Source of the DNA: a virus
DNA: 64,000 nucleotides
Strand: one strand, 5' to 3'
IMG/VR virus record: IMGVR_UViG_3300017963_000228
Coordinates: 24,663 to 88,662 of that record
A program made the position numbers and the translations under genes. Below are positions 218 through 64,000 of this stretch, piece after piece. The notes beneath the pieces are model-generated. The model worked only from the letters and a program-made list of their open reading frames with translations. It was not told the DNA's origin and ran no database searches. The first letter of the stretch is position 1. Each line of letters begins with the position of its first letter.

Positions 218-239
218 TTTAAAAAATTCCTCTATAAAA

Positions 240-1235: not shown

Positions 1236-1252
1236 AATAAATACCTTTCTAT

Positions 1253-2016: not shown

Positions 2017-2023
2017 TAAATAA

Positions 2024-2227: not shown

Positions 2228-2240
2228 TTAAAACACCCCT

Positions 2241-3278: not shown

Positions 3279-3289
3279 AATAATACTCC

Positions 3290-3718: not shown

Positions 3719-3732
3719 TTTGAATCTCCTTT
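3709..3732. repeat. 24-bp direct repeat copy 2 (RBS + start of 3290..3718)
   Basis: Identical to 1993-2016. Confidence 0.85.
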
Positions 3733-3765
3733 CAAATGGTAAAAAAATTAATTGATTTTAATAAT

Positions 3766-3794
3766 ATTTTAAGCTAAAATTAAAAGTTTCGCAA
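3766..3794 (-). promoter_or_regulatory. Putative sigma70-type promoter for 3718 and downstream genes
   Basis: Minus strand TTGCGA-N17-TAAAAT in AT-rich intergenic gap. Confidence 0.4.
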
Positions 3795-3802
3795 TCCTTT
3801 TA

Positions 3803-4717: not shown

Positions 4718-4741
4718 TTAAAAATCTCCTATTAATTTTAA

Positions 4742-7101: not shown

Positions 7102-7562
7102 TAAGTCACCCCCACATAAACTGAAATAGTATCACTGGCAGAAAGACTTGTTACATAAATTTTAATACTTTTAGCCCCAAAATCATTTGAATAAACAACA
7201 TTTGTTCCAATATAACGAGAACCATCAAGAATAGCTAAATTACTAATGGTTATTTCATTCGTATATCCAATCAAAGCATCAGCCGTATCATAGAATGCAA
7301 TTCTATATTTTGCATTTGCTGCATTATCATTAAATGTATTTTTACATATGATATAAAATCTACCTTGAACATCAATGTAGCTGGCTGATGGATAATGTCC
7401 CGTTGCTGATACGGCATCTAACTGTGGAGTGCTGGGAAGTGTAATAACACCCATCCCCTGTATAGCACGTTCAATCTGAACATTCGTAGAATTGATCGTT
7501 GCCTGTACAGAAGATACATTCTTACCTGATCCCTCTGTTACAGCAATATATGATTCAGACAT
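7101..7562 (-). CDS. Hypothetical structural protein
   Basis: 153-aa beta-rich ORF translationally coupled in the tail cluster. Confidence 0.55.
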   Translation of the reverse strand: MSESYIAVTEGSGKNVSSVQATINSTNVQIERAIQGMGVITLPSTPQLDAVSATGHYPSASYIDVQGRFYIICKNTFNDNAANAKYRIAFYDTADALIGYTNEITISNLAILDGSRYIGTNVVYSNDFGAKSIKIYVTSLSASDTISVYVGVT

Positions 7563-7574
7563 AATTATTCTCCA

Positions 7575-8078
7575 TTAAACATCTTGAGAATTAATGGAAT
7601 ACGTCACATTTAATACTTCCGCAGCAATAAATGGACGTGGTGTACTGAATCGGGTAGCACACCACATAATACCAACACCACTGGCATTATCCCCTTTTGT
7701 TGAAACATTCACCACATATGATCCATAAATTGTAGTGCTTACACCAGTAGATGCCGTAAACGAAACTTGATCACTTAATGTATGATTAGAAATTGAACCG
7801 GGAGTCCATGTAGGACGTGCCGTTTCATCATAAGAAGTGAACTCTGTTTGATCCGTACCAATATCAGCATAAACCCAACCAGCAGCAGGGGTAGAATCTG
7901 AGTTAAAAAGAGCAACATACCAAGAAGAATATGCCGTTCCTCCCAAAAAAATAACATCCAATGAATGATCAATGCCTTCATCAACCACAATGTTTGGAAT
8001 AACTTCCACCCATTTCAATTGACCATCAGGATAAAAACACTCAAATTTCCACCAATTATTTCGCAAACCACGTTTCAT
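7575..8078 (-). CDS. Tail-associated structural protein
   Basis: NIVVDEGIDHSLDV...WYVALF...TEFTSY...RPTW...EVLNVTY family motif; start moved to MKRGLR (GGAGGA RBS). Confidence 0.6.
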   Translation of the reverse strand: MKRGLRNNWWKFECFYPDGQLKWVEVIPNIVVDEGIDHSLDVIFLGGTAYSSWYVALFNSDSTPAAGWVYADIGTDQTEFTSYDETARPTWTPGSISNHTLSDQVSFTASTGVSTTIYGSYVVNVSTKGDNASGVGIMWCATRFSTPRPFIAAEVLNVTYSINSQDV

Positions 8079-8091
8079 AATTCTTCCTCCC

Positions 8092-8340
8092 TTAAAAACT
8101 GTGAATAACGTTCCAAGCACTATTATAATATACCTTTAACTGATCATTACCTGTATCAAGCCACTGCATTCCATCAGTAGGAGTTACATCAGGATAATTA
8201 TTAGTATGTCCCGGTGGATCACTGCTGGGAAAACCAAGCAATGCTGCTTCAATAATATCATAATTCAAATTTGCTTCCAAATCATAACGCAGTGTTTGAT
8301 AAGGAGGTTTTGAAAGATGAAACGCTGGAGTAAAAGCCAT
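8092..8340 (-). CDS. Small tail/fibre-associated protein
   Basis: TPTDGMQWLDTGNDQLKVYYNSAW motif typical of fibre domains. Confidence 0.55.
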   Translation of the reverse strand: MAFTPAFHLSKPPYQTLRYDLEANLNYDIIEAALLGFPSSDPPGHTNNYPDVTPTDGMQWLDTGNDQLKVYYNSAWNVIHSF

Positions 8341-8351
8341 TTTAAATCTCC

Positions 8352-9152
8352 TTAATCCTCATGATAAACCTTTAATGCATCCGTAAGTAAAGCTTTTGCA
8401 AAAGAATATGTGCCATTGCTATCTTTTACAAATACTTCTATTTCCACCTGATCTGAAAAAACACCCCCACTAAAAGAAACATTATTTGCTGCCGTTAAAG
8501 TATAAGTAGCGTCAGCATCAGGATCACCTGTATCCGTAATAGTGATAACTTGTTTCGTTAATCGATCTACATTATTAGGAGTCGTGCCATCAAGATATCT
8601 TGAATTACTTGGGCCATTAGGTTTCCAAATATGAATTTCAAAAGAGACAAGATTAGAAGCATCACCATCACCATAAGAAACAATAGCACCATACTCAGCA
8701 GCACCGTATCCATAAGATGGATCAACATTCGTGCGTGTTCTCCACGTAAATGTAATATCATGAGGATTATCAATTATATTATATCCAGTTAAATCAAAAC
8801 CAATTGTTTCATTACAAGTAATATTATTCGATAATGCTCTTTCTACCGTATCATTAAAGGCAATTGTTTCCACTAAATAAACATTAAAGGTATCATCACC
8901 TGAATCATTTAATCCAATAGTTTCTTCTAATAAAACACTAAATGCCGATTCTGATGAATCTCCCAATCCAATTGTTTCAGTTATTTCTTCAAATTTAATT
9001 TCAACCGGGATTCCACGAAGACCAATTGTATCCTCAACCAAAACAGATGATGAAGCAATGGATAAAGTTTCACCAAATCCTATTGATTCATCAATAACAA
9101 CATCAAGTCCCGGTCCTTCACCACCTTCTAATGTGAATTTAAGTACATGCAT
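8352..9152 (-). CDS. Fibre-like protein with ~20-aa E(T/S)IG repeats
   Basis: DESIGFGE, EDTIGLRG, TETIGLGD, EETIGLND, VETIAFND, NETIGFD. Confidence 0.55.
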   Translation of the reverse strand: MHVLKFTLEGGEGPGLDVVIDESIGFGETLSIASSSVLVEDTIGLRGIPVEIKFEEITETIGLGDSSESAFSVLLEETIGLNDSGDDTFNVYLVETIAFNDTVERALSNNITCNETIGFDLTGYNIIDNPHDITFTWRTRTNVDPSYGYGAAEYGAIVSYGDGDASNLVSFEIHIWKPNGPSNSRYLDGTTPNNVDRLTKQVITITDTGDPDADATYTLTAANNVSFSGGVFSDQVEIEVFVKDSNGTYSFAKALLTDALKVYHED

Positions 9153-12100
9153 TTATAAATTCCGTTCATACCTTAAAAGAGTTGGTGAATATGGACGCCC
9201 ACCAACGGGACCACGAAGAAGCAAATTAAAATAAGGTGCTGTACTGTAATCTGCTTCTTCTCCATAAGCTGAAAGAGAAACTGCTTTAATTCTAAGTAAA
9301 GGCTGATCATATTCGATTTGACTTCCTTCTGTTTGTGCTTGTTCTGCTGTCAAATCCACAAATTCAGAGGTTACTGGAAAAGAAAAAGTATTATAATTAG
9401 CTAATGTAATTAAAGGGTTTGTCCAATTTAAATAAGTATCAGGGGCATCAACAGCATACTGTTCATCAGGAACTTCAACACATCGCACACATCCAATAAA
9501 TTTATTATTAATTGTATCAATACCATTATAATAAATTAATTCTTGATTTACCCAAATATAACCAGATGCGGGAAAAGTTCCCAACATTGTTGTTGAATCA
9601 TATGGTATTTCCGTATAGATATATTCATAATTTTTTTCTTCACAATATTTACTAATTGTCTCAGCCATTACTGACGTTTCTGTTGTGCCTGTAGAACTAA
9701 AAATTACATTTGGTGTTACACTTGAACTAAAAGCAGTTCCAACAAATTGATCATTACCACCATCAATAGAACAATATATTTTAGCACCCAACCAAAAATT
9801 AGTTTCCACAGGACTATAAAAAGTAATATAAACTCGTTGAGTTACATAATCATAATAAGCAAAAAGTCTTCTTACATGAAATGGAATAATATTTGGACTC
9901 ATATTTGTATTTAAGATACCGGATGAACCTGTTTGAATATGTATTTCAGAATAATCATTAAATATTTCCCTTTTATATTCTTCAAGAAGTAATTTACATT
10001 CAAAATCATCCCCAATTTCTTCTATACTTTTAATTCTAAATAATTTAATAAACCATCCGGTAACATTATGTGTTACTCCTACAATATCTCCAACGCACAG
10101 AGCATAACCAATTAAATCAGTATCAAAATTACAACTCCATTCTATATAATTTTCATAATCTAAATAACGAAAAGCCATTCTACTTGCTTGTGTTGCACGA
10201 CAAATTCCGCGCATATCCATTTGTTTAATATGTACATCTCCATCGTAAACATCTTGTCTATAATGATCACTTGCTTCCACAATATCTACATCATAACCTG
10301 TCATACGATTTGTAAACTCAACACGTACCTTATTAATTCTATCTACATTAGATTTTTTAAAATAAGAAAATGATCCTTCTTTAATATTTTGTTTTGAAAT
10401 AAAAACTTCAACTCCATTAGGAGCATAAACTGGTAAATCATCAGAAAGTCGTATGTAAGTACTTCCTTGTTCTATAATAATTATTTCATAATTAACATTA
10501 TCAACTTTAATATAACCAATATCTCCTTTCCAGTAATCCTCTGGATAATCTTCAAAATTTATAAAAATAACATCATATTCATTAGAAAGAGCATTTGTAA
10601 CAAAAGTGTTTTCATCAAATCCAAAATAAAATGAAACAGGTTCATTAGGTGTTGGAACTATAAGTCTATATGCCTTTAAATCATTATGACTATCGGGGCC
10701 ACTAAAACCGGGACACCGATAAAACGCCCCTTGAAAAGTATCCAAAACTTCATCTATATAATCTTTCGCACTTTTTCTTTGTTCATAAGATTTTGAAAAA
10801 AGATATCGTCTTTCAACAATATCAAATGTACGTCCAGCATAATTAATTTTAGCAGGAACATATTCTTGAATTTTATCATCTACATCTAAAGGAGTGTATA
10901 AACCTGTATAAGAATAATGAATAGGAGTGGTTGATTTACTAATAATTGAACTAATAGCACCAACTGGATTAGCATCACACTGATAACTATAAACATGATT
11001 ACCATCAACAGAACAAGCATATTTACAATTTCTTATTGTATAATTAAGAGAACCTTGTGTTACAGTACTTACTCTTGCCCTATCATTATTTCCATCTAAA
11101 GGATAAGCATATCCTGCTTTATTATATTCATTTGGGGGAAAATAGCACCAAGTTTCAAATTCACCACCAAGAGCATATGGAGGTCCGTTCTCATAAGAAA
11201 AAATTAATTTATTATCAAAATCAAATTTTCTTAAATTTGGACTATCTGTTCTGGTACTACGACTTTCTACATACATAGTCGTATAAAGTGGTCCCGTTGC
11301 CCAGCCACCTCTACGATACCATTTAACTAATCCTGCCACATTAACACCTATAGCTAATGTAGAAGAATAATCTCCTTCTTCTGTACTTACAGGTTGATCT
11401 GCCGCAGGAAAAATACCTTGTGTTCCTAAATCCAGAATATATGCACCATTACTTGCATATGGTCCCAAATACTCATATAAAAGGGCATACCAACGCCATT
11501 GATAAGAATTTGATGCTAAATCAAAAACATATGCTTTTACAGCACCCCTATAAACATGACCACTTAAATGAAGGTTTGTTCCTCCAAACTGACTTCTTCC
11601 TGCTCTATTATATGACTTTATCGAAAGATCACTTTTATTAATTACAAGACCTAAATGGCGTTGAGTATTCGTTTGCATTATTAACCATGTAACAGCTATT
11701 TCAGAATCAGTAGATACCGAATGTATAGCCGAAGTTCCAGTATGTGGAATACAAATTTCAAATGCATCAGCGCCAGCATTATAAGCAAAAGGATAATTTT
11801 GATAAAGTTTTCCTAAATATGCCCCCGTATTTTTATTAAAACGTAAAACAACTAAACGTTCAAAACCATCAGCATGTAAAGAAGTATTAAACCAACTATT
11901 ATATTCTAACACATTAAAACCAATATCCCAATCTATAATTGGCAAATTATCTTCTTCTTCAAGTCGATTAAATAGATATTCGTAAAACCATTCATCTGTA
12001 GGATTATAATATCGATAATAATCTGAATCTGCCCCATCCCATCTATCATACACATCAGAAGAAAATGTAAAAAATATTTTATCTCCAACTACTGGATCAC

Positions 12101-46799: not shown

Positions 46800-47469
46800 A
46801 AATACTCCCTTAATTCCAAAGGTGGATCTTCAAAGTATTTTTGGAAGAAATGAATATCATTTTAATCTTCGCAAAGAAATTAAAATAGAAAATCTCTCAC
46901 ATACCAGCGGTAATATCAGTCTTACGGAATTAATGTATCTTGCCCTTATCACAAAGATTGTTAATCCCACGCTTATTGTGGAATTTGGTACGTTCAATGG
47001 ACGTAGCACATCCATACTGGCAATGAACTCATTACCTGATTGCCGTGTTATCACTGTTGATCTTCCAAATACACATCGTAACAAAACCAAATATGAATTA
47101 GAACGCAAACAAAATTATGAAGATGTTGATGAACTTGGTTTTGTTGGTTTAAAAAATAAACTGTTTTCTGATAAGGTTTATCGAAATAAAATAGAACAAC
47201 TGTGGATGGATTCAGCTCAATTCCCTATTGAAAAATATAAAGAAAAAGTAGATCTTTTCTTTGTCGATGCTTCTCATTCCTATCTTAATTGTAAAAATGA
47301 TTTTAGAACTGCTCTTAAATGCATTACACCAAACGGTGTTATTATTCTTCATGATTATGCTGGATGGCCGGGAGTCACAGAAGCATTGAATGAAGAATGG
47401 TATGATCATGATATTCCTTTACGTTGGCTATCGGGAACTTCTTTTGCAATTCTAAATTCGGAATTATAG
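46786..47469 (+). CDS. Class I SAM-dependent methyltransferase (Methyltransf_24-like)
   Basis: IVEFGTFNGRST, DLFFVDASHSY, GVIILHDY..WPGV. Confidence 0.85.
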   Translation: MSKNENTPLIPKVDLQSIFGRNEYHFNLRKEIKIENLSHTSGNISLTELMYLALITKIVNPTLIVEFGTFNGRSTSILAMNSLPDCRVITVDLPNTHRNKTKYELERKQNYEDVDELGFVGLKNKLFSDKVYRNKIEQLWMDSAQFPIEKYKEKVDLFFVDASHSYLNCKNDFRTALKCITPNGVIILHDYAGWPGVTEALNEEWYDHDIPLRWLSGTSFAILNSEL

Positions 47470-47477
47470 GAGTATTA

Positions 47478-48494
47478 ATGAAAGTTCTAATATCATTTAT
47501 CAATCACAAGTCTAAACCTCAAGATCCTAAACGTTTAGTTGGTATTTTCGATTTAAAAAAGAAAAAATTAATTAAGTGGCTTGATCTAAGTGTTTGTGGT
47601 CAATATGACGATGTAGTTCATGCCACTGGTATGTGTTATAAAGATAATCAACTTTACATTGGCCTTATTCCATCCCGATATCGATTAACCGGAAAGTTAT
47701 TTTCTACTAATATAAAATCTGGTCAATGCTGTATGAATGAATTGCGTTTGACCAAGGGTATTCACGGCATTTGTAATTACAATGGTGATATTATCTTAGC
47801 CAATAGCTGTCAAAATGATTTAATAACAGCTTTAACGGTAAGAGATGGCAATATTATTTGTGAAGATGTATTTTTTGATCTTCTGGAAAATCAACATTCT
47901 GGAATGCGATCCAGTAGTAAATATGATTTTAATGATTGGCCTGACTCTGATGATAATTATCACAACAACAGTGTCATCACTGATTCTAAGGGTGATGTAT
48001 GGATTTCTTCTTTCTTTTCCTATTTAGAATATCCTTGGAAAATAGAAAAACGTCAAAATAAAACAAAAGTAAATACAATCGAAAAACTTGGTATGCCAAA
48101 AGGGATTGTTGCCAATATCAGTAATAATCCACCATTAATACATACTGGCTATAAGATGCCCCATACAGTTTATTTTGATCATAAAGGTGACATGCTTCAT
48201 TGTGAAAGCAAAACATTTCGGGTATGGCATTCACGATATGGTGCATGTTATTGTGATGGATATACCAGAGGTATTTGTGAAGATGTTCCTAACAATGGGT
48301 ATTGGGTAGGTCTTTCTGCATATCGTCAAGGTAGGAGAGATGGATCAGAAACAATTATGGGAGATCTCAAAGGTGCCAAAGTAGTATTTGTTGATTATAA
48401 CATGGAAAAACGTATTGGCTGGGAATGGGATATGTCAGAATTCGGTTTGGAAATATTTGATATCATTCCTTTCAAATCTGGAGTATATAAATGA
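47478..48494 (+). CDS. Beta-propeller protein (DUF4915/TIGR03032-like)
   Basis: D..HNNSV, GYKMPHT, CES, GYTRGI, YWVGLSAYR, EIFDI motifs; start MKVLIS with AGGAG RBS. Confidence 0.55.
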   Translation: MKVLISFINHKSKPQDPKRLVGIFDLKKKKLIKWLDLSVCGQYDDVVHATGMCYKDNQLYIGLIPSRYRLTGKLFSTNIKSGQCCMNELRLTKGIHGICNYNGDIILANSCQNDLITALTVRDGNIICEDVFFDLLENQHSGMRSSSKYDFNDWPDSDDNYHNNSVITDSKGDVWISSFFSYLEYPWKIEKRQNKTKVNTIEKLGMPKGIVANISNNPPLIHTGYKMPHTVYFDHKGDMLHCESKTFRVWHSRYGACYCDGYTRGICEDVPNNGYWVGLSAYRQGRRDGSETIMGDLKGAKVVFVDYNMEKRIGWEWDMSEFGLEIFDIIPFKSGVYK

Positions 48495-55352: not shown

Positions 55353-55573
55353 AAAATAAAAAGCCCAACAGCATCGAAATCAATATGCTTCCTATTATTT
55401 ACACTATAGGAATATTGTTATTTCTGGTAGGCGGCAACTGGTTCCTGATTGTTAAAAATACACCTGTTTATACGTACCTTATTATATATGGTATTCTTTT
55501 AATCGCAATTGGTTTTATTATTTCATTGAATAAGTCACCAGATCAAAACCTCCAAAGGCGAATTCGGCGTTAG
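55349..55573 (+). CDS. Small two-TM membrane protein
   Basis: Two hydrophobic helices. Confidence 0.55.
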   Translation: MKNKKPNSIEINMLPIIYTIGILLFLVGGNWFLIVKNTPVYTYLIIYGILLIAIGFIISLNKSPDQNLQRRIRR

Positions 55574-55588
55574 AAAGGAGGATTAAAC

Positions 55589-55981
55589 ATGTTGATTAAA
55601 GAATTCATTGAAAAATTCCGCTGGTTCAATCCAGATGCATCCATTTGTATCGATGGTGTTCCCATTAAAGATATTAAAATCATGCATAGTACCAAAAAAG
55701 GCGTTGAACCGTATAATTGTCAATCAATCAATATCAAAACCATTGATGTATCGCAAATACCCCCTGAAGATGATCATATTATTGATCATGTCGTATGTTC
55801 CTATCCAAAACATTGCATGAACCGTGAATATCATCCTGATCAACCTGATTGCCAAGCTTGTTTTGATGAAAATCACCGTATCTTCCTTTTAAATGCAGCA
55901 TCTTCAATGGAATCCAAAAGTGGTATTGTTAAGTATGATCATGATATACCCTCATTCTTAAATGGTAATAAGGAGGATTGA
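55589..55981 (+). CDS. Hypothetical protein
   Basis: AAGGAGG RBS; MLIKEFIEKF..FNPDA N-terminus. Confidence 0.6.
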   Translation: MLIKEFIEKFRWFNPDASICIDGVPIKDIKIMHSTKKGVEPYNCQSINIKTIDVSQIPPEDDHIIDHVVCSYPKHCMNREYHPDQPDCQACFDENHRIFLLNAASSMESKSGIVKYDHDIPSFLNGNKED

Positions 55982-56202
55982 TTTTGCTTAAAAGAACTCA
56001 GGAAAAAGATCATATCTGTTATGATATCGGCAATGATTCCGTAAAACTCACAATAGGCGATGAAACATATCATTTAGGACGTGTCGATATTAAAATCAAA
56101 CGCTATCATCATAAAGTTCAGATCATACTGGATGATATGACGTGCCACGTTGCACCGATGCCGATTTTTTTAAATCAACGGCATAAAAAGGAAACCAAAT
56201 GA
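55978..56202 (+). CDS. Hypothetical protein
   Basis: Coupled ORF with AGGAGG RBS. Confidence 0.5.
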   Translation: MILLKRTQEKDHICYDIGNDSVKLTIGDETYHLGRVDIKIKRYHHKVQIILDDMTCHVAPMPIFLNQRHKKETK

Positions 56203-56360
56203 AGAATCATGAGATTCAAATCTATTATCAAGGCACCAATATGGAAATGTTCAAAATCATCTGTTATACAACTAATTCTTATATTGATCTCCTCCGCAAA
56301 CCTAATTTCTGTCCCATGTGTGGTGAATTAATCAATCTATCTTATAAGGAGGATCAATGA
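56199..56360 (+). CDS. Small protein with FCPMCG motif (53 aa)
   Basis: Hand translation MKNHEIQIY...PNFCPMCGEL; ATGA overlaps on both ends. Confidence 0.55.
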   Translation: MKNHEIQIYYQGTNMEMFKIICYTTNSYIDLLRKPNFCPMCGELINLSYKEDQ

Positions 56361-56575
56361 AATTCACTCTTTATTGGAAAAATGGTAAAAAGGATGAAAT
56401 CTTTGGTAATGATCTACCGGATGCCTTATTGAAACATCAATTAACGTATAGACCAAATCATATTGCCTGTAATCTTGATTTCTATACCATCGGTGATGAT
56501 GCACAACCTTATAATTGGAATGCCAAATGCAAATGCTGGTTCAAACCCGGTACGCTAATGGATGATATCAATTAA
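56357..56575 (+). CDS. Hypothetical protein
   Basis: AAGGAGG RBS; FTLYWKNGKKDEIFG. Confidence 0.6.
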   Translation: MKFTLYWKNGKKDEIFGNDLPDALLKHQLTYRPNHIACNLDFYTIGDDAQPYNWNAKCKCWFKPGTLMDDIN

Positions 56576-56611
56576 CTATTGACAATATTATAACCAATCA
56601 ATGCATAAATC

Positions 56612-56652
56612 AATCGCTGGGCATGGTCAAAAGACCTCCCGGCGATTTTTTT
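56612..56652 (+). terminator. Intrinsic terminator ending the rightward operon
   Basis: aatcgctggg / cccggcgatt stem plus T7. Confidence 0.75.
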
Positions 56653-57168
56653 GCCTTAATTTGCTTTAATCCCTTCATAATTCCCCATATTCAATCAAAA
56701 TTCCTCATATTCGATTAAAATCGTTAAAAATTAACCTATTTTCCATTAAATAATGGTCTTATGGCACTCCTGCGGTTAATCTACTGATGGCCTGATATGA
56801 TCTTTGATGATTGAATAATCGAATTTTTTTAAAATTTAAAAATACAAAACTATATAATCCGATTGATTTACATTGATGATTTTCGATTTTTAATTAATCA
56901 AAAATTTAGCTCTTGACCTCTTACGCTGTAATTCGGATCGGGCATTGAATGGTCGATTGAATGGCATGATTCATGCATTGAATCAATTGAATTGCTCATT
57001 GCTTATCAATTAATCAATAAATAAGCAATTGCGATTGATTGCTTTTGACTTATTCAATAATTAGTCAATTGATAACTTGAATGAATTGGATTGATTCAAC
57101 TGGTATTGATTGCCTTGATTAGCTGAAAGCATTTACTTGGATTGATACCCTTGATTAATTCAAATAGG

Positions 57169-57226
57169 ATTGATTGATTCAATTCATATGTTTATTGATT
57201 GATTCAATTCATATGTTTATTGATTG
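57169..57226. repeat. 25-bp tandem repeat (2.3 copies)
   Basis: attgattgattcaattcatatgttt x2 + attgattg. Confidence 0.85.
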
Positions 57227-57374
57227 CTTTTAATTGGCTTTATATTGGATTGATTCAATAGGCTATAGAATACTATTAAACATTGTTTATATGCTCATAT
57301 ATCGCATATGGTTTGATTCAATGATTTATATTGTTTTGATTCTTTTCCCTTAAAATATAGACTATCAAGGCAAT

Positions 57375-57407
57375 AAAAAAGGGAATGCAATATAACAGCA
57401 TTCCCTT
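57375..57407 (-). terminator. Intrinsic terminator ending the leftward early operon
   Basis: aagggaatgc / gcattccctt stem with T6 on minus strand. Confidence 0.75.
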
Positions 57408-57431
57408 GTTTTAAACGATATATTTTAAACG

Positions 57432-57635
57432 TTATTCGTTAATGCCTAATACATAATCAATGTAAATATTGGCAATCCTTTTGCTTAAAGATAATTCAAT
57501 ATCTGTTATATAATCCCCTAATACATGCGAATAATAATGACAGTAATTAATAAAGGAATCATTATAATTCATTCCCATATAATACTGTTTATCCTTTAAA
57601 TGATTCAATATAGCCTGTATTGTTTCTGCTTTCAT
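57432..57635 (-). CDS. Hypothetical protein
   Basis: Start MKAETIQ with AAGGA RBS. Confidence 0.5.
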   Translation of the reverse strand: MKAETIQAILNHLKDKQYYMGMNYNDSFINYCHYYSHVLGDYITDIELSLSKRIANIYIDYVLGINE

Positions 57636-57653
57636 AATGCTTTTATCCTTTAT

Positions 57654-57687
57654 AAAGGGAATGACCATTAAAAGCATCATTCCCTTT
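57654..57687 (-). terminator. Stem-loop after 372-aa gene
   Basis: aaagggaatga / tcattcccttt; same stem sequence as 57379-57407. Confidence 0.55.
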
Positions 57688-57699
57688 TAGTTTAATTGA

Positions 57700-58818
57700 T
57701 TAATTGATGAATCCTGCTACCCATTGCCAAAAGCTTTTGACTTCATTAAAAGCAGGGAATGCTTCCTTGCAATAGTCGCGAATAGCACTAATAGTATCAG
57801 CATCAACCGCCCCATGGTCCTTTATTGTTTCAATGATCAATGCCATAGTGTCAGCATCAATGCCAAGCTTTTCAATATAGTATTTCTTATCCTTTACCGT
57901 TTCAGGTGCTACCGTATCAGGTGCTTTCCCTTGCAATTGATTCAAGGCATTGATAAATGCTGCTATTGCCTTTTTTTGCGCTCCTGCTGCCCATATAAAT
58001 ACGCCTTGTGATCTCTTATTCGTCCAGTGTTGCCTAATAGTGGAATTGATTGTTTCAGGTGTTGTTAAGTCAATTGATTGTACCATTTCATCGAATGTAT
58101 TGATATGGGCAAGCTTTTTTGTACCCATAAATTTTGATTTAAAATTGTCCATAAAAAGCTTATACAATTTGTTAATCAATTCGGATTGATCATTCGGAAT
58201 AACTTCAATTGATTTCGATACCGTTTCTGCTGGTACGGTATCAGGTGCTTTTTTCTCATTCCTTTTAATGATTGTTTCTTGTTTAATGCTTTGTATTTCA
58301 TTCAACCGTTTATTCAATTGTACCAGCAAAACATTGTTTTCAGATACCACTTTATTCAATTGTTTAAGATACGATTTTATTTCAACTTGATCTTTCTCGA
58401 TGGTTGATACCTTAGCATCGTAAATCGCAATTTTTGCATCAATCGCGATTAAGCTTTTTTTCATATCTTCAACCGCTGCAAATTTATTAATAGTCAATTC
58501 CGATTGACTTTCAATAATACCTTTTTTTGCCATTCCCAGCATAATAGGATTATCTGCTTTTTTTTCTGCTTTTTTGATTTCGATAGTCTTGACTGCTTTT
58601 TTCTGCAATTGATTCAAGATAGGATTAGTCATTGTTATTCCCTCCATTTTTAATTGGTTTAATGATTCCATTAAAATATCATGGGATATCAATTCTTGTT
58701 TTTTTCCCTGCTGGTAATGTATCCAATTAAATTTATCTAATCTGTTGAATGATCCTTTTTTGTTATACTTAAAATGGTAATCACCATTAAAAGCACTATC
58801 CCGATTGACTGTAATCAT
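57700..58818 (-). CDS. Coiled-coil hypothetical protein (possible internal start at 58632)
   Basis: 372 aa; GGAGG RBS before MTNPILN; repeated KAPDTV(PA/AP)ETV linker. Confidence 0.65.
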   Translation of the reverse strand: MITVNRDSAFNGDYHFKYNKKGSFNRLDKFNWIHYQQGKKQELISHDILMESLNQLKMEGITMTNPILNQLQKKAVKTIEIKKAEKKADNPIMLGMAKKGIIESQSELTINKFAAVEDMKKSLIAIDAKIAIYDAKVSTIEKDQVEIKSYLKQLNKVVSENNVLLVQLNKRLNEIQSIKQETIIKRNEKKAPDTVPAETVSKSIEVIPNDQSELINKLYKLFMDNFKSKFMGTKKLAHINTFDEMVQSIDLTTPETINSTIRQHWTNKRSQGVFIWAAGAQKKAIAAFINALNQLQGKAPDTVAPETVKDKKYYIEKLGIDADTMALIIETIKDHGAVDADTISAIRDYCKEAFPAFNEVKSFWQWVAGFIN

Positions 58819-59000
58819 TTTATCACCTTATCAAATGCAGATTGATATTGATCATTGATAAGTATCAATTCCGTTTTAATATTGTTATACGATGCAATCC
58901 CGAAATAAATAATTGATGCAATGATAGCAAAGTCAATTGCGATAAAAATTGCTTTTCTCATTCGTTTCACCTCCCCTCTATTGTGATTTATGATTGCCAT
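58815..59000 (-). CDS. Small membrane protein with two in-frame starts
   Basis: One TM helix; identical GGGGAGGTGA RBS before ATG 59000 and ATG 58961. Confidence 0.6.
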   Translation of the reverse strand: MAIINHNRGEVKRMRKAIFIAIDFAIIASIIYFGIASYNNIKTELILINDQYQSAFDKVIK

Positions 59001-59044
59001 TGATTATCACCTCCCCTCTATAAAAAAAGAATAAATAAAAAAGC

Positions 59045-59072
59045 ATTATCATATAATATATGACCATTGCAA
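59045..59072 (-). promoter_or_regulatory. Putative leftward promoter
   Basis: Minus strand TTGCAA-N16-GATAAT. Confidence 0.35.
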
Positions 59073-59557
59073 GGCTAAACAATGGGAAAACCACTTTTTT
59101 TATAAGCTTTTTTTATTATCAATGCCATTGAATGCTTATTAATTACTTGATTGACTTGAAAGCAATAGAAAAAAAAGTATTTTTAAAATCATAATAAAAT
59201 CAACTATTTAAGCCTATTGACAGTTAATATTGACTTATGAGAAAATGGGTTTTTTTATAAGTATAAGCAATGATCAATCGCATTGAATGCTTTCAATTGC
59301 TTATATTGTTTTGAATCAATCGCATTGATTGATTGACAAAATCAATCGAAATGCCATTGATTGACCATTCAGATTAATATTTTAAAGTATTTTCTGAATG
59401 AAATTCATAAAAAAATCAATGACTTGCATTGAATCAATCCTGCAAGTCTCCAGATATAAGATGGAGTGATTGAATGGGTTTTGCAGCAATCATAACAATC
59501 ATTCATCACTCCAAAATTTTCAAATCTTTCCAATCATTTTTAAGAAAGGAATCAATC

Positions 59558-60232
59558 ATGGGAAAGAAAGCAATCAAACAACACATTAAATCAAATGGCA
59601 ATCGTTTTTACTGTGGATTGAATGCAAGGAATCGAATCAAAGATGCATTCATTGATCCTGAAGACAATCAATTGTATTCCTATGAAGGGGAATTGATTGA
59701 TCATTCCAATATGCATTTGATTTGTACCAATTGCTTAAAGCTTGGATTCCCTGAATTGCACAATCGATTGCTTAATGACAAAGCAATCGAATCCTTCCGT
59801 AATTCCCTTCCTAAATCGAATCGTGAACGTAAACGATTGAAATCAATCAATCGTAACAAGCGTTGCGATTCCCGTAAATCCAAACCATTCAATGTCATTT
59901 ACCTTGGATACAATCCAATCATTGAAAAACCAATTATGGACCCATCCAGATTGCTTCCATTGCCTGAATCATTCCAGAAAAAGGAATCAAAAAAGCAATC
60001 AAAGAAAAAAGCAATGGCTAAAACCAAAGAACCAATAATTGAATTGACCGAAATAGTGAATGATCAACTTGAGGATTCATTCATTGAATTTGGCAATCAA
60101 GTGGCAATTGTTAGAGGTTTTGGCAATTATTGGAAAGTGATTTATAAGAATGATGATTCAACAATTGAAGATTTATCCGATTGGATACCATATGCTGCGG
60201 CAATGAATGAAGCACAGCAATTGGTAGCATAA
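59558..60232 (+). CDS. Hypothetical early protein
   Basis: Start MGKKAI with GAAAGGA RBS; H...C...CTNC motif. Confidence 0.6.
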   Translation: MGKKAIKQHIKSNGNRFYCGLNARNRIKDAFIDPEDNQLYSYEGELIDHSNMHLICTNCLKLGFPELHNRLLNDKAIESFRNSLPKSNRERKRLKSINRNKRCDSRKSKPFNVIYLGYNPIIEKPIMDPSRLLPLPESFQKKESKKQSKKKAMAKTKEPIIELTEIVNDQLEDSFIEFGNQVAIVRGFGNYWKVIYKNDDSTIEDLSDWIPYAAAMNEAQQLVA

Positions 60233-60267
60233 ACAATCAATCAAATAAATGAAAGGAGATTGAATCA

Positions 60268-60402
60268 ATGACAATCAAACGAATCACAAAATCTGGCAAA
60301 GTCAATCCGAATGAATACCATGAAAAAGGATTAAAGAAAAAGAATCGCAATAAAAAACGCCGCCGTGATTCAATCCGAATGAAGCAATTGGGATTGAATT
60401 AA
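60268..60402 (+). CDS. Small very basic protein (44 aa)
   Basis: AAAGGAG RBS; MTIKRITKSG...KKKNRNKKRRR. Confidence 0.55.
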   Translation: MTIKRITKSGKVNPNEYHEKGLKKKNRNKKRRRDSIRMKQLGLN

Positions 60403-60417
60403 AAGTGAAGTTATGTG

Positions 60418-60472
60418 GGCAATTGGAACTGATTGCAAAGTCAAGTTATCTATGCAATTAGTTCTGATTGCC
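60418..60472 (+). promoter_or_regulatory. 20-bp RNA stem-loop (possible RNase III/processing site)
   Basis: All 20 positions pair on + strand RNA including three G-U pairs. Confidence 0.55.
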
Positions 60473-60514
60473 TTATTCATTCATTTTTTCAATCAACTGT
60501 AAAGGATACTTGTC

Positions 60515-60760
60515 ATGGCATGGGGAAAAATCTTTTCAATCGTAAAGGAATCATCCGAATGTTGTATTTGCAGTAAATTGAGAGCATTCAATCAATGCGC
60601 TTCAATCAATACTGATTATGGTGAATTCATTGTATGCAATGAATGCTCTCTTAAAATGCATAGCAATACCAATTATTTGATTGATCCCCATACCTATCAA
60701 ATCAATGAACGTAATGCCTATATCGCCAAACTTTATATCGAATCAATTTTCAATGAATAA
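60515..60760 (+). CDS. Zn-finger hypothetical protein
   Basis: CCIC...VCNEC. Confidence 0.55.
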   Translation: MAWGKIFSIVKESSECCICSKLRAFNQCASINTDYGEFIVCNECSLKMHSNTNYLIDPHTYQINERNAYIAKLYIESIFNE

Positions 60761-60784
60761 TCAATCAGGAAAGGAATCCAAGTT

Positions 60785-61312
60785 ATGCCTAAACACCATT
60801 TAATCGGATTGTCATTAAGTCAATGTACTAAAGATTGGTTGAATCAATCAATCAGTCTTGATTCAATTCATTGTATCATTTCTGGAACGGCTATAATTGA
60901 TTGCCATGATTCAATCATGAATTGGATCACTATTGAGCCGTCCATTCAATCACAATTGATTGAATATGGTACTGAATCAGTAGGTGAATTCATTGAGCAT
61001 TTATTCAAATACAAAAAACTGATTCAGCCCCGATTGAATCAATCTGGAATGCTTCCTGCCTATTTCGCAACATATCATTGGATTCATCATACCCGATTGA
61101 CTGATTGGTATCGCCACAGAGCAATCAATCAAATGTGTCCATATTGTGGATCAATCAATGATTATCAATGCATTGCCATGAATGCCACTAAACAAAAAGA
61201 GATTGATGAATATCAATTGCTTTGCAATGAATGCAATAAGGATTGGGCAATGCCTTTTGATCCTGTTTGGCATCATTACGAAGCATCCGATTGGCAATCA
61301 ATTAAACGATAA
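60785..61312 (+). CDS. Hypothetical protein with C-terminal Zn ribbon
   Basis: IGLSLSQC...KLIQPRL; CPYCG...CNEC. Confidence 0.6.
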   Translation: MPKHHLIGLSLSQCTKDWLNQSISLDSIHCIISGTAIIDCHDSIMNWITIEPSIQSQLIEYGTESVGEFIEHLFKYKKLIQPRLNQSGMLPAYFATYHWIHHTRLTDWYRHRAINQMCPYCGSINDYQCIAMNATKQKEIDEYQLLCNECNKDWAMPFDPVWHHYEASDWQSIKR

Positions 61313-61336
61313 CAATCAATCGAAAGGAGCATTACA

Positions 61337-61870
61337 ATGAAACCAATCAAAATTTATGGTTCCAATGGTGAATTCAACATTGATTCAAAAGGTTATATCA
61401 TTGACAAAGAATCAATGCCAGATGATTACCAACATTTCAACCGATTCAATATCAATGAATATCTTCATTGGCTTGATTCAATGGGATTGCAACATGATAA
61501 TGATGAATCACAATTGCCAATTGATATATTGGATATCGGCGTTTGGTATGGTGAATTCAATGCCTATGATCCACCGGATGAATCGCATCGAAATGAATGG
61601 GCAATTGAACATTTGAATGAAGCAAAAGAAAAACAAAAATCAATCAATGATTCCAAATTAAAAGAATCAACAATCGTGGCAATCGTTGAATCATTCCATA
61701 CAGGACAAGGCCGCCAAATGGTTGAATTGATTGATTCATATGGATTATACGATGTATGGCATGACATTGCCAATCATTTGAAAGATACCTACGGTGAATT
61801 GATTGACCATGAAGCAAACTATTCATTTCAGCAAATCGTGATTCAATACCATAAAATCAAATACCGTTGA
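61337..61870 (+). CDS. Hypothetical protein
   Basis: AAAGGAG RBS; IDILDIGVW motif. Confidence 0.6.
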   Translation: MKPIKIYGSNGEFNIDSKGYIIDKESMPDDYQHFNRFNINEYLHWLDSMGLQHDNDESQLPIDILDIGVWYGEFNAYDPPDESHRNEWAIEHLNEAKEKQKSINDSKLKESTIVAIVESFHTGQGRQMVELIDSYGLYDVWHDIANHLKDTYGELIDHEANYSFQQIVIQYHKIKYR

Positions 61871-61884
61871 TTGAAAATCAATCG

Positions 61885-61922
61885 AATGCCTAATTGGGAT
61901 TCATTCCCTTTTAGGCATTTTT
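61885..61922 (+). terminator. Intrinsic terminator
   Basis: aatgcctaa / ttaggcatt plus T-run. Confidence 0.65.
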
Positions 61923-61941
61923 GCGTCTAAAGGAGCATTCA

Positions 61942-62010
61942 ATGGATGAAATGGATTATTTAGGACTTTTCATTGTATTATCAAGCTTGCTTATTTGCTT
62001 TTTACATTGA
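61942..62010 (+). CDS. 22-aa hydrophobic peptide
   Basis: AAAGGAG RBS; MDEMDYLGLFIVLSSLLICFLH. Confidence 0.4.
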   Translation: MDEMDYLGLFIVLSSLLICFLH

Positions 62011-62086
62011 AATCACAAGTTATCCCATATGACAGTATAGGTTTTAATTCATAAATCAATTTTTCAATAATGAGAGGATTGACACA

Positions 62087-62185
62087 ATGATTGACCGTAT
62101 AAATCTTATTGGATTAGTTGTTTTCGCATTATTTTTTATCCTATGTGCAATCAAACCTGAAGTCATTCAATGGGCATTCTTCTAA
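62087..62185 (+). CDS. 32-aa membrane peptide
   Basis: GAGGA RBS; MIDRINLIGLVVFALFFILCAIKPEVIQWAFF. Confidence 0.45.
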   Translation: MIDRINLIGLVVFALFFILCAIKPEVIQWAFF

Positions 62186-62209
62186 TCATTCAATGAAAGG
62201 AGATCAATC

Positions 62210-62626
62210 ATGACTTACACAATTGAAGATCTTAGAAAAGCATTCCCCGAAATAGATGGAATTAAGCTGATTCTTATTAAAAGAATCATTAACAAGGAAA
62301 TCGAATCAAATGAATTGGAACTATTCGATTCAAATGCGAAGTGGATTATGCAATGCTACAATCGGCCCAATGATACGGAGTTATCCATGAATGCATTAAA
62401 TGAATTGATTGAAGGATTCGGAACGGAAGCAATCAAAAATGAAAATGCCTATGTCAATAAATATTATTCCGATTGCATTGGCATTTATGTCAATATGGGT
62501 GATTCATACGCAATGACAATCATTTATGATACCAATGAAAATGAATTCCTCATTACTTCATGGGGCGATTTCATTGAAGCATATGAGCAATCAATTGAGA
62601 ATGAATCAAATGAATTAGAGGATTGA
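62210..62626 (+). CDS. Conserved phage hypothetical protein
   Basis: CYNRP...ALNELIEGFGTE...YVNMGDSYAMT...TSWGD motif; AAAGGAG RBS. Confidence 0.7.
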   Translation: MTYTIEDLRKAFPEIDGIKLILIKRIINKEIESNELELFDSNAKWIMQCYNRPNDTELSMNALNELIEGFGTEAIKNENAYVNKYYSDCIGIYVNMGDSYAMTIIYDTNENEFLITSWGDFIEAYEQSIENESNELED

Positions 62627-62655
62627 AAAATATTTTTTACAGTATTCAAAATATG

Positions 62656-62684
62656 TTGACAAAATGCTTTTTGTTTAGTATATT
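62656..62684 (+). promoter_or_regulatory. Strong sigma70-type promoter
   Basis: TTGACA-N17-TATATT. Confidence 0.75.
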
Positions 62685-62753
62685 CCAGTTTTCATAACAA
62701 AGGCAACAATGCCTTTAAATCCATTTAATCGAATAATTGAAAGGAGATTAACA

Positions 62754-63605
62754 ATGGGAAACAATTACATTAATGGAATCAGTATTGATCAAATCATTTC
62801 AACTTTAAACAAAGCAATTCCTTTGATCGAATCACAATCAAATCAATTAAACCAACAGCCTGATGATCCAATGAATGCCACTATGAAAGCAGCATTACAA
62901 TTGCATTCAGATCAAATCCATTCAATTACTACCCTCCTACGTTCAATCAATAAAAATACCATACATCCTATCAATTTTGTTGATGCATTAGCAATGAAAG
63001 AAGCATTAGAAGAATATGGTTCACCTATTGAATCAGTTGATATTCTTCCTATGTGGCATAATTCCAATCAATCTCCCGATGATTCCAATCCTGATTACTT
63101 TATCATGGTCATTCACTATTCACGATATTCATTGAATCCAATTGGTTATCACAATGGATATGAGAAGGTGATATTTGAATGGAAACTCTATTTCAAAAAA
63201 GAATTGGGGTTATCTGGAATCCCATATAATCTATCCCATCTTGTATGCATTCCTCAATGCGATCAATTGGAAATCGTCAATAAATCCCTTCCTGATGAAG
63301 AATTCCCTAACAATGATTCCCATGAACCTGATTGCGAAGTATTCAAACGATCTCTATTGCATCCTTGGAATCCTGAAGATGAACCATTCCCCGATGATTG
63401 CACTTGCGGATTGAATGAACAATGGGAAGGCTATTCCCATCCAGATGATGAATTTTTCTATCAGGAAATGGAAAATATCATTGGAATCATTATGGCAAAT
63501 AATTTCATTCCCGATGCTAAATTTGATCCGACTAAAAGTGAATGGACATTAGGGGATCAATCATACGTAGTAGGACAGCCATTGGATGAATGGTGGCTGG
63601 GTTAA
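62754..63605 (+). CDS. Acidic hypothetical protein
   Basis: Start MGNNY with AAAGGAG RBS; HEPDC...CTCG motif. Confidence 0.6.
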   Translation: MGNNYINGISIDQIISTLNKAIPLIESQSNQLNQQPDDPMNATMKAALQLHSDQIHSITTLLRSINKNTIHPINFVDALAMKEALEEYGSPIESVDILPMWHNSNQSPDDSNPDYFIMVIHYSRYSLNPIGYHNGYEKVIFEWKLYFKKELGLSGIPYNLSHLVCIPQCDQLEIVNKSLPDEEFPNNDSHEPDCEVFKRSLLHPWNPEDEPFPDDCTCGLNEQWEGYSHPDDEFFYQEMENIIGIIMANNFIPDAKFDPTKSEWTLGDQSYVVGQPLDEWWLG

Positions 63606-63679
63606 TCAAGTTATCTGGCAATCAAGTTAAATGACAAATCAAGTTATCTATTCAATCAAATAAGTGAAAGGAGATTGAA

Positions 63680-64000
63680 ATGAAAAAACGTATGGTGATT
63701 GGCAAAAAAGATGGACGGCAAGTTAGTTTGGAATGGGAATTGAAACTAAAGAATCCTAACGGAAGTCAATACGACATTCATAACAAGCTTATGAATGACA
63801 AATGGTTTCAATTGTCCATATCAGCTAATTCTGCTAATTGGGCAGGACAGGCGTATGATGAATTGCTTTCAATGGATGAAACCTACATTGATCAATCCAA
63901 ATTGAAACAATTAATTGAATACTGGAAAGCATGGCATTTGAATGATATGCGTCCCGGCTGTATTCATCAAAAGGAATGGGATGGAAATAAAAAACTTAAA
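63680..64000 (+). CDS. Conserved phage hypothetical protein, partial
   Basis: AAAGGAG RBS; open to window end; WKAWHLNDMRPGCIHQ motif. Confidence 0.65.
   Translation, partial: MKKRMVIGKKDGRQVSLEWELKLKNPNGSQYDIHNKLMNDKWFQLSISANSANWAGQAYDELLSMDETYIDQSKLKQLIEYWKAWHLNDMRPGCIHQKEWDGNKKLK

What the first reader, a model, noticed from the sequence alone, without database searches (positions are those of the whole stretch)
56940..64000. Early region saturated with a degenerate palindromic motif (S-A-W-T-S; TCAAT/ATTGA) written through coding DNA
Seen: from ~56.94 kb to the window end, intergenic DNA and ORFs on both strands are packed with GAATC/GATTC/CAATC/GATTG/CATTG/CAATG words. Hand counts give ~22 TCAAT+ATTGA in 60781-61380 versus 3 in 47401-48000 at similar AT content. 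TpA steps are ~13 in 60841-61140 versus ~31 in 47401-47700. The bias appears to shape protein sequence (NQSISLDSIH, ESIDI, IESQSNQ). It spans many unrelated genes and both transcription directions, so it is not a tandem repeat or single-gene codon effect. Inference: a second code laid over the first-expressed, possibly first-injected, DNA. It could be a dense landing lattice for a phage or host DNA-binding protein, a methylation/decoy array (GANTC is a subset), or TpA/A-tract avoidance to escape H-NS/Lsr2/Rok-type silencers. I know of no named feature type that accounts for it.
Basis: partly seen in the sequence, partly recalled or inferred. Interest (0 to 1): 0.78.

Follow-up and report, generated by a model that had tools for sequence, protein, structure and literature searches.

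The report
Short-word lattice over phage early genes
The early genes of this uncultured marine phage and two relatives are overwritten, in genes and spacers alike, with the short DNA word CAAT/ATTG about every 19 bases, a conserved signal whose reader is unknown.

Summary
S-A-W-T-S words rise from 13-38 per 2 kb to 58-127 per 2 kb in the last 8 kb.

The core is CAAT/ATTG, written S-AAT(T)-S. It occurs in all three codon frames, on both strands, and in non-coding DNA.

The excess survives every null tried: codon permutation, dinucleotide and trinucleotide Markov models, and a null fixing amino acids, codon usage and junction dinucleotides.

Two related genomes (35-70% protein identity) carry the same words at the same place. 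Density jumps at the first gene of the long early operon and decays over about 25 kb into the replication genes.

It is neither periodic nor position-conserved, and is not a tandem repeat, an RNA-structure effect or a GANTC array. TpA loss is confined to coding DNA.

My best guess (about 0.3) is a dense low-affinity binding lattice. Rivals are a first-entering-DNA dialect as in T5, a local mutation bias, and expression-class codon bias.

This scan noted similar early-DNA word lattices on other phage DNA (e1-6091519, e1-5931896).

The parts
56576..57431 (.). Left non-coding region with a one-orientation array of GATTGATT-type words. The peak is at 57001-57250, and 57169-57218 is an exact 25-bp tandem duplication.
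   Evidence: No ORF of 40 aa or more. CAAT|ATTG is 24 per 250 bp at 57001. Repeat families D9, D10, D12, D16; TRF array 57169-57226 at 100% match. In relatives the syntenic spot holds perfect (CAAT)n/(ATTG)n runs.
57432..59000 (-). Small minus-strand operon of three ORFans (82, 372 and 61 aa) with moderately raised motif density.
   Evidence: ORFs; no Pfam or PHROG hit. SAWTS is 6, 25 and 6 vs 2.2, 13.2 and 2.7 after codon-order permutation. The 372-aa protein has a 25% identical homologue in G001.
59001..59473 (.). Divergent intergenic region. It holds three operator-like palindromes ATCAAT-N3-ATTGAT (59118-59132, 59273-59287, 59315-59329) and a promoter-like site at 59217-59246.
   Evidence: Pattern search finds 1, 1 and 0 mismatches. 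Repeat family D2. TTGACA-18-GAAAAT with an extended TG.
59474..64000 (+). Head of the long early operon. Nine ORFan genes with strong AAAGGAG-type ribosome sites carry the peak of the CAAT/ATTG lattice, about one word per 18.4 bp. The last gene is cut by the contig end.
   Evidence: ORFs; no family hits. 241 CAAT|ATTG in 4527 bp. Frames of SAWTS are 71/62/80. CAAT is realised at 108 of 156 synonymous opportunities.
60384..60471 (+). Intergenic 35-nt tandem repeat holding the word AAGTTATCT. A second such array lies at 63604-63659.
   Evidence: TRF rows; sequence read directly.

Best explanation
The early operon of this phage lineage carries a dense, non-periodic lattice of a 4-5-bp word. The core is CAAT/ATTG, usually written S-AAT(T)-S, and it occurs about once per 18-20 bp. 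Selection at the DNA level keeps the density of the word rather than its exact positions. I read it as a field of low-affinity contact sites for a DNA-binding protein. On this reading the protein nucleates at the non-coding arrays and operator-like palindromes at the head of the domain and coats the early and replication genes. Site density, and so occupancy, falls with distance from the head. Likely uses are shut-off or protection of early DNA, or help with DNA entry. Shown: the DNA-level nature of the signal, its word specificity, its polarity and its conservation. Inferred: that a protein reads it, and every proposed function.
For: (1) The signal is at the DNA level. The motif sits in all three codon frames (71/62/80 in G000, 97/101/126 in G001). 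Non-coding DNA inside the domain has 49.6, 54.3 and 44.1 CAAT|ATTG per kb vs 15.1, 18.8 and 13.3 elsewhere, in three genomes. The strictest null (amino acids, own codon usage and own junction dinucleotides all fixed) still leaves SAWTS at 1.30-1.34x (z 6.4-8.4), CAAT|ATTG at 1.24-1.39x (z 5.8-12.8) and CAATC|GATTG at 1.48-1.67x. Late genes give 1.02-1.18x (z 0.3-2.7). (2) The signal is word-specific. Among A/T runs flanked by G/C, AAT/ATT is 3.96x and AATT 4.83x early vs late, but AAAT is only 1.84x and A or AA 0.67x. Observed SAWTS is 355 vs 152 (dinucleotide Markov) and 187 (trinucleotide Markov). (3) The same words recur at the same place in three genomes. CAATC is 6.5x and 5.3x in G000 and G001, and 4-mer log-enrichments correlate at r=0.72. 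SAWTSAWTS occurs 116 times vs 6 for the reversed control in G001 and 94 vs 1 in G006. (4) The signal is polar. In G001 the share of synonymous opportunities written as CAAT jumps from 0.31 to 0.79 at the first early gene. It then runs 0.71, 0.64, 0.67, 0.61, 0.60 and falls to 0.36 after 83 kb. G006 behaves likewise. (5) The head of the domain holds arrays of the same word: a GATTGATT array and three ATCAAT-N3-ATTGAT palindromes within 212 bp in G000, and (CAAT)n/(ATTG)n inverted runs in G001 and G004. (6) The spread is even. In 60-bp windows the Fano factor is 0.65-0.79, and empty windows number 2 of 75, 2 of 149 and 2 of 119.
Against: No binding protein was found. All 10 ORFs of the region lack Pfam and PHROG hits. 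Ten further domain proteins of G001 gave no DNA-binding or methylase family. Atlas leads were weak (HNH/EndoVII at 0.82, below the usable level) or absent, and the fold of the first early protein was unusable (pLDDT 47.8). There is no preferred spacing beyond CAATTG (d=2) and CAATCAAT (d=4), and no helical phasing. Sites are no better conserved in position between G001 and G006 inside the domain than outside it (P 0.79 vs 0.42 early, 0.59 vs 0.17 late). The 15-bp palindrome is not conserved: 3 matches in G001 (6 of 200 shuffles reach that) and 0 in G006. Strand symmetry is only partial. C-initial words (CAATC, CATTC) are realised 5-7x more often early than late, but their complements only 1.5-2.7x. 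At four-fold sites T-C-A rises from 0.07 to 0.27 while T-G-A does not (0.09 to 0.11). Part of the effect is a codon-usage shift of a known kind.
Confidence: 0.3

Rival explanations
1. First-entering or first-exposed DNA written in a narrow 'dialect'. The domain enters or is exposed first, before anti-defence proteins exist. Selection therefore shrinks its vocabulary so that fewer host recognition sites can occur, and the over-used CAAT words are simply the safe filler. The gradient follows time of entry or exposure.
For: A 7,662-bp piece of the domain lacks 33.5%, 33.9% and 37.5% of 6-mer classes. Late chunks of the same size lack 24.4+-3.0, 25.4+-3.0 and 28.7+-0.9%, and the domain exceeds all 40 chunks each time. 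6-mer entropy is 9.6 vs 10.0-10.2 bits. The known first-step-transfer DNA of T5 behaves alike: 16.2% vs 11.5+-1.5%, dinucleotide distance 176 vs 39+-13 for control chunks, against 163-183 for this lineage. GGCGC occurs 33 times in T5's first 10.2 kb vs 12 in the next 39.8 kb. In T5-like phages restriction works only if sites lie in the first-entering DNA (PMC10644984, passages read). The layout is also similar: small ORFans in two divergent units beside a repeat-rich non-coding stretch.
Against: The signal is an excess of one specific word, not an absence of many. No 5-mer is fully excluded in both genomes. Restriction-type palindromes CAATTG, GAATTC and TCGA are about 3.2x more often realised than in late genes. 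Six-bp palindromes are barely rarer than in late chunks (40 vs 38.2+-1.7, 48 vs 44.1+-1.2, 44 vs 41.6+-1.2 absent of 64), whereas T5 shows 37 vs 27.2+-3.7. Palindrome avoidance here is genome-wide. The physical ends are unknown, and the terminase genes lie about 15 kb away.
Confidence: 0.2
2. A region-specific, context-dependent mutation or repair bias, for instance tied to a replication origin at the arrays. It drives neutral sites toward CAAT-like words, and no reader of the words exists.
For: Density is kept but positions are not. The effect at synonymous sites is a plateau of 2.1-2.5x over 21 kb whatever the gene. Complementary dinucleotides move together at codon junctions: AC 0.66 and GT 0.53, AG 0.68 and CT 0.65, CA 1.6 and TG 1.35. 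Non-coding DNA is affected too.
Against: The information sits at the 4-5-mer level, beyond dinucleotides and trinucleotides, which is unusual for a mutation spectrum. The left edge is sharp, falling at one intergenic region. The bias has been held through divergence to 35% protein identity, yet only in this part of the genome. No known process is polar over 25 kb with this context.
Confidence: 0.15
3. Expression-class codon bias. Early genes are tuned to the host's translation apparatus and avoid UpA, and the motif is a by-product. The non-coding arrays are unrelated regulatory sites.
For: All three genomes share a strong early-vs-late codon shift. Up: TTC 5.8x, TGC 4.7x, GGC 4.1x, GTC 3.3x, ATC 3.2x. 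Down: ATA 0.32, TCT 0.34, AGA 0.53. AAC and GAC are unchanged. There is sense-strand asymmetry. Early/late codon differences are reported for half of 14 phages studied (PMC5683454, outline and abstract seen).
Against: The excess remains after fixing each gene's or group's codon usage (250 vs 165.7+-8.1; z 6-13). The choice of NNC depends on the next base: 0.49 before A vs 0.17-0.22 otherwise. The words occur in all three frames. Non-coding DNA is enriched 3x. There are no tRNA genes in G000, G001 or G006.
Confidence: 0.1
4. A hot-swappable module. The word lattice supplies micro-homology, so the early domain is exchanged among co-infecting relatives.
For: In one public data set the assembled contig ends at window 57198, inside the tandem duplication. 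Depth then drops to 7.95 (7.62) over 57197-62650 and 7.71 over 62833-64000+. This fits two strains that share an identical backbone but differ in early domain. The G000 contig itself ends inside the domain and starts in its fading tail, just past the part where the words are dense.
Against: The depths are per-contig means from what may be one data set filed twice. No alternative haplotype was seen. Selection for exchangeability is weak in principle, and this reading does not explain word specificity or the gradient.
Confidence: 0.05

Closest known systems
First-step-transfer (pre-early) DNA of phage T5 and relatives
   Same: Both have small ORFan genes in two divergent units next to a repeat-rich non-coding stretch. 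Both have an oligonucleotide signature far from the rest of the genome: dinucleotide distance 176 in T5 vs 163-183 here, against control chunks of 39-68. The 6-mer repertoire shrinks by about 1.3-1.4x in both. T5 also has one strongly enriched short word, GGCGC, at 33 vs 12.
   Different: T5's region is a terminal repeat with known ends and a sharp stop. It avoids palindromes (37 vs 27.2+-3.7 absent). Here the ends are unknown, the domain is a 25-kb gradient reaching into replication genes, and palindromes are not specially avoided. There is no protein kinship: the terminase finds only <30% identical hits in unrelated siphophages.
Early-versus-late codon-usage divergence in phages (Mioduser et al. 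2017, PMC5683454; T4 work of Cowe and Sharp, recalled, not seen)
   Same: Synonymous codon usage differs strongly by expression class, and consistently in three genomes.
   Different: The signal goes beyond codon frequencies and junction dinucleotides, is independent of frame and is present in non-coding DNA.
Highly iterated palindromes such as HIP1 of cyanobacteria (recalled; named in earlier scan notes)
   Same: A short word is written into most places where the protein sequence allows it. CAATTG is realised at 109 of 162 early and 102 of 149 middle opportunities, vs 100 of 470 late.
   Different: The effect is limited to a domain and graded, not genome-wide. The unit is a 4-mer with non-palindromic variants. 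Genome-wide, CAATTG is only 1.36x over the maximal-order Markov expectation.
Nucleoprotein lattices that start from nucleation sites (ParB-parS spreading; phi29 protein p6 at genome ends; both recalled)
   Same: Arrays of the word sit at the head of the domain, and a field of weaker sites falls off with distance.
   Different: No ParB-like or p6-like protein was found. There is no 12- or 24-bp periodicity. Here it is the sequence itself that is graded.

Membership tests
Expression-class codon bias | Synonymous codon usage differs between early and late genes | tested here: met
   The shift is shared by G000, G001 and G006.
Expression-class codon bias | The signal is explained by sense-strand codon frequencies in coding DNA | tested here: not met
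   250 vs 165.7+-8.1 with gene codon usage kept. z is 5.8-12.8 under the strictest null. Non-coding DNA is enriched 3x.
T5-type first-step-transfer DNA | Lies in a long terminal repeat and enters the cell first | not testable with these tools
   Only assembled contigs of public runs were available, so there are no read starts or local depths.
T5-type first-step-transfer DNA | Oligonucleotide usage distinct from the rest of the genome | tested here: met
   Dinucleotide distance is 175, 183 and 163 vs control chunks of 52+-16, 56+-17 and 68+-17. T5 gives 176 vs 39+-13.
T5-type first-step-transfer DNA | Extra depletion of restriction-type palindromes | tested here: inconclusive
   40 vs 38.2+-1.7, 48 vs 44.1+-1.2 and 44 vs 41.6+-1.2 of 64 absent. 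T5 gives 37 vs 27.2+-3.7.
T5-type first-step-transfer DNA | Kinship with T5-like phages | tested here: not met
   The terminase tblastn finds 42 records, all <60% identical (listed hits 23-28%) with none covering 80% of the query, and no T5-like phage among those listed.
Tandem repeat or microsatellite | Head-to-tail copies account for the word excess | tested here: not met
   By my sum of the rows, TRF arrays cover 579 of 7701 bp. A third-order Markov model predicts 55.7+-8.9 SAWTSAWTS vs 66 observed.
GANTC (CcrM-type) site array | GANTC as a whole is the enriched unit | tested here: not met
   GANTC equals GAWTC in all four bins of 56001-64000, so GASTC is 0. CAATC is 5.75x vs GAATC 2.98x. 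Methylation itself is not testable here.
Highly iterated palindrome | One palindrome many-fold over expectation genome-wide | tested here: not met
   CAATTG is observed 85, 211 and 169 times vs 67.7, 146.7 and 128.4 expected.
Periodic nucleoprotein lattice (phi29 p6 type) | Regular spacing of sites | tested here: not met
   Only the d=2 and d=4 peaks appear, and the spectrum is flat.
Silencer evasion by TpA avoidance | TpA depleted in all DNA of the region | tested here: not met
   TA is not reduced in non-coding DNA of the domain in any of the three genomes.

The most novel reading that the evidence does not exclude
Phage early DNA can carry a second, protein-independent code. This would be a dense, non-periodic lattice of a lineage-specific 4-5-bp word, graded from the early promoter, which marks the first-used 25 kb for an unidentified reader such as a coating protein or a site-specific nickase. 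The halved sequencing depth of the domain would then reflect a physical mark on that DNA. With different words, the same device may recur in unrelated phages, including T5's first-step-transfer DNA (GGCGC) and the cases noted earlier in this scan.
Probability: 0.25. Interest if true: 0.85.

Novelty: new variant of a known kind. Interest (0 to 1): 0.62.

Why it matters
Early regions decide whether an infection succeeds, yet they are mostly ORFans with no known organising principle. This feature is conserved, polar and DNA-level, and it constrains both synonymous sites and amino acids over about 25 kb. Some machinery or hazard must therefore act on early DNA as DNA. T5's first-entering DNA shows a signature shift of the same size. 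That makes an old open question testable in a model phage: how is pre-early DNA told apart from host DNA and from later phage DNA? The feature also warns annotators that the protein composition of early ORFans can be driven by a nucleotide-level signal.

Tried and rejected
RNA structure. Folding z-scores of 120-nt windows are the same in early sense (-0.60), early antisense (-0.53), G001 early (-0.56), late (-0.72) and replication genes (-0.72). Rejected.

Known RNA families. No Rfam match at E<=1 in 55500-64000.

Promoter avoidance or excess. 40 promoter-like sites vs 46.8+-6.5 in shuffles, and 4 terminator-like sites vs 3.6+-1.9. No signal.

Similar DNA in deposited phages. No blastn hit for the region or for 20 kb of late genes.

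Close relatives found through the 283-aa early protein alone: none. The G001 381-aa protein found only itself.

Host identification. The ribonucleotide reductase found one contig, filed under a Thermoplasmata MAG and probably a phage contig binned by mistake. The host-signature idea therefore stayed untested.

The (GATT)4G microsatellite as a marker. It occurs in 117+ viral contigs, and 80 loci were listed. Among those of at least 3 kb, none has a dense domain. The maximum is 23 SAWTS per kb in any 3-kb window, against 40-60 here.

Binder search. Pfam and PHROGs on 10 region ORFs and 20 further proteins gave nothing useful. Atlas leads were weak or absent. The AlphaFold model of the first early protein had pLDDT 47.8, so I ran no fold search.

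Literature. Searches for GATTG + phage, over-represented oligonucleotides in early genes, codon usage and dinucleotides in early and late genes, and T5 pre-early DNA found no description of such a lattice.

Read laying. It gave only contig-level depths. Parts without cover, and the low shares of run X3, are not used as evidence.

Full report
What the window is. The window is the last 64 kb of a single 88,662-bp virus contig. The phage is a siphovirus type. It has an 1831-aa tape measure, tail-fibre-J-like proteins, a portal, an HK97-type head protein and a large terminase on the minus strand. On the plus strand it has ribonucleotide reductase, a thymidylate-synthase-like protein, a flap endonuclease, a DnaB-like helicase, a primase and an amidase. 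No deposited phage is similar at the DNA level, and the terminase finds only <30% identical hits. Public runs that hold the region are labelled sediment and seawater metagenomes.

The observation. SAWTS words rise from 7-38 per 2 kb to 58, 88, 127 and 87 in the last four bins. The other 24.6 kb of the genome has 6-22 per kb. Unbiased k-mer contrasts name the same family: CAATC/GATTG 5.75x, ATTGA 4.65x, GATTGA 9.5x and AATCAATC 37x, with AC/GT, AG/CT and TA depleted.

What the unit is. Dinucleotide and trinucleotide Markov models predict 152 and 187 SAWTS against 355 observed. A third-order model predicts 346, and it also nearly predicts the 9-mers (55.7+-8.9 vs 66). The information therefore sits in 4-5-mers, with no long-range order. 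Parsing A/T runs between G/C bases shows specificity. AAT/ATT is 3.96x and AATT 4.83x early vs late, but AAAT is 1.84x, A or AA 0.67x and TA 0.42x. The core is CAAT/ATTG. It occurs once per 18.4, 18.2 and 20.1 bp in the peak of three genomes, is spread slightly more evenly than chance, and has no periodicity. By my sum of the rows, TRF arrays cover 579 of 7701 bp.

Coding or DNA level. The excess survives several nulls:
- Permuting synonymous codons within genes gives 165.7+-8.1 vs 250 observed.
- Drawing codons from the rest of the genome gives 103.7+-7.7.
- Permuting codon order gives 86.9+-8.5.

The words fall in all three frames. The usual period-3 signal of G/C bases is absent in the region.

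Part of the effect is a strong early-vs-late codon shift shared by three genomes, which is a known kind of difference (PMC5683454, outline and abstract seen). But the use of C-ending codons depends on the next base (0.49 before A vs 0.17-0.22 otherwise). Junction dinucleotides also move in complementary pairs.

A null that fixes amino acids, the group's codon usage and its junction dinucleotides still leaves 1.24-1.67x excesses (z 5.8-12.8) in early genes of all three genomes. Late genes show none (z 0.3-2.7).

Non-coding DNA inside the domain has three times the CAAT|ATTG density of non-coding DNA elsewhere, in all three genomes, while its TA content is normal.

Against full strand symmetry, C-initial words respond more than their complements on the sense strand. 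Some translation-level component is therefore likely.

Extent and conservation. A terminase search found 35 related viral loci. One contig (G001, 107,962 bp, rated complete) is syntenic with this genome. The window's end matches G001 at about 63.5 kb, and the contig's start matches G001 at about 83.2 kb. About 19.7 kb of the feature is therefore missing here. A third genome (G006, 89,161 bp) came from an early-protein alignment.

All three share the layout: a plus-strand block, a small minus-strand operon, then a long plus-strand operon. In G001, density jumps at the first gene of that operon (58808). The share of synonymous opportunities written as CAAT goes 0.31, then 0.79, 0.71, 0.64, 0.67, 0.61, 0.60, and falls to 0.36 after 83 kb. 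G006 declines likewise.

The synonymous-level excess is 2.1-2.5x over 21 kb, which includes a split family-A DNA polymerase, an AAA ATPase and a RecA-like gene. Amino-acid accommodation is confined to the first 7 kb.

The same words are enriched in each genome. Two more distant relatives (25-27% identity in the shared early protein) lack a dense domain. Sites are not better conserved in position inside the domain than outside it.

The head of the domain. In this window a non-coding array of GATTGATT words (56750-57250, with an exact 25-bp duplication) lies left of the minus-strand operon. Three ATCAAT-N3-ATTGAT palindromes lie in the divergent intergenic region. G001 and G004 carry perfect (CAAT)n and (ATTG)n runs in inverted order at the syntenic place. 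The 15-bp palindrome itself is not conserved in G001 or G006.

Depth. The next contigs, covering the domain, have depths 7.95 and 7.71. The simplest reading is two strains with one shared backbone and different early domains. A physical cause cannot be excluded.

Comparison with T5. T5's annotated first-step-transfer DNA differs from its next 40 kb by as much as this domain differs from late genes. Its dinucleotide distance is 176 vs 39+-13, and its 4-mer divergence is 0.032 vs 0.006. It has 33 GGCGC vs 12 in the next 39.8 kb, and it lacks 16.2% of 6-mer classes vs 11.5+-1.5%. Passages of PMC10644984 state that T5-like phages are restricted only through sites in that DNA. I did not find this signature of T5 described in the papers I searched, and supplements were closed.

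Mechanism. I rank the readings as follows:
- A binding lattice, 0.3.
- A first-entering-DNA dialect, 0.2.
- A local mutation bias, 0.15.
- Codon bias as the main cause, 0.1.
- Micro-homology for module exchange, 0.05.
- The remainder is unassigned.

No reader protein was identified. The first gene of the operon is conserved in all three genomes. It encodes a His/Cys motif followed by a Lys/Ser/Pro-rich linker, which makes it a candidate only.

Verdict. The feature is real, conserved and DNA-level, and it matches no named feature. Part of it belongs to the known class of early/late compositional divergence. Earlier notes of this scan describe comparable early-DNA lattices with other words in other uncultured phages. 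I did not check those notes.

Noticed in passing
Whole genomes G000, G001, G006 (window 1-64000 included): CTAG is absent from all three genomes (0 vs 91.8, 152.0 and 126.6 expected). At least eight 6-bp palindromes are also at zero in all three: ACCGGT, CACGTG, CAGCTG, CGATCG, CTGCAG, CTTAAG, GCATGC and GCCGGC. CCWGG is absent only from G000 (0 vs 33.0 + 53.6). The two distant relatives without the word domain do not avoid CTAG (115 vs 115.1; 48 vs 62.7).
   Followed up: partly
window 57198 and 57197-64000: Assembled contigs of a public run break at 57198, and their k-mer depth halves (16.7 to 7.95 and 7.71) across the motif-rich part.
   Followed up: partly
L186 (phage T5, NC_005859) 1-10219: T5's first-step-transfer DNA has its own word signature. 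GGCGC occurs 33 times vs 12 in the next 39.8 kb at similar GC. Dinucleotide distance is 176 vs 39+-13 for control chunks, and 37 of 64 six-bp palindromes are absent vs 27.2+-3.7.
   Followed up: partly
window 60384-60471 and 63604-63659: Two intergenic tandem arrays share the word AAGTTATCT. They may be early promoters or regulator sites.
   Followed up: no
L039 12752-16087 (G001 72752-76087): The family-A DNA polymerase is split into two genes, and the exonuclease part is fused to a uracil-DNA-glycosylase-superfamily domain. The thymidylate-synthase-like protein (L042 3918-4691) matches Pfam only weakly, yet is 71% identical between G000 and G001.
   Followed up: no
L068 (contig filed under a Thermoplasmata MAG): An 18.4-kb contig in an archaeal metagenome bin encodes a ribonucleotide reductase 56% identical to this phage's. 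It is probably a related phage contig binned by mistake.
   Followed up: no
window 59558-60232; L038 18808-19824: The first early protein has a Lys/Ser/Pro-rich linker. In G001 that linker repeats the peptide TNQSK, so the protein sequence may itself be shaped by the DNA word.
   Followed up: partly
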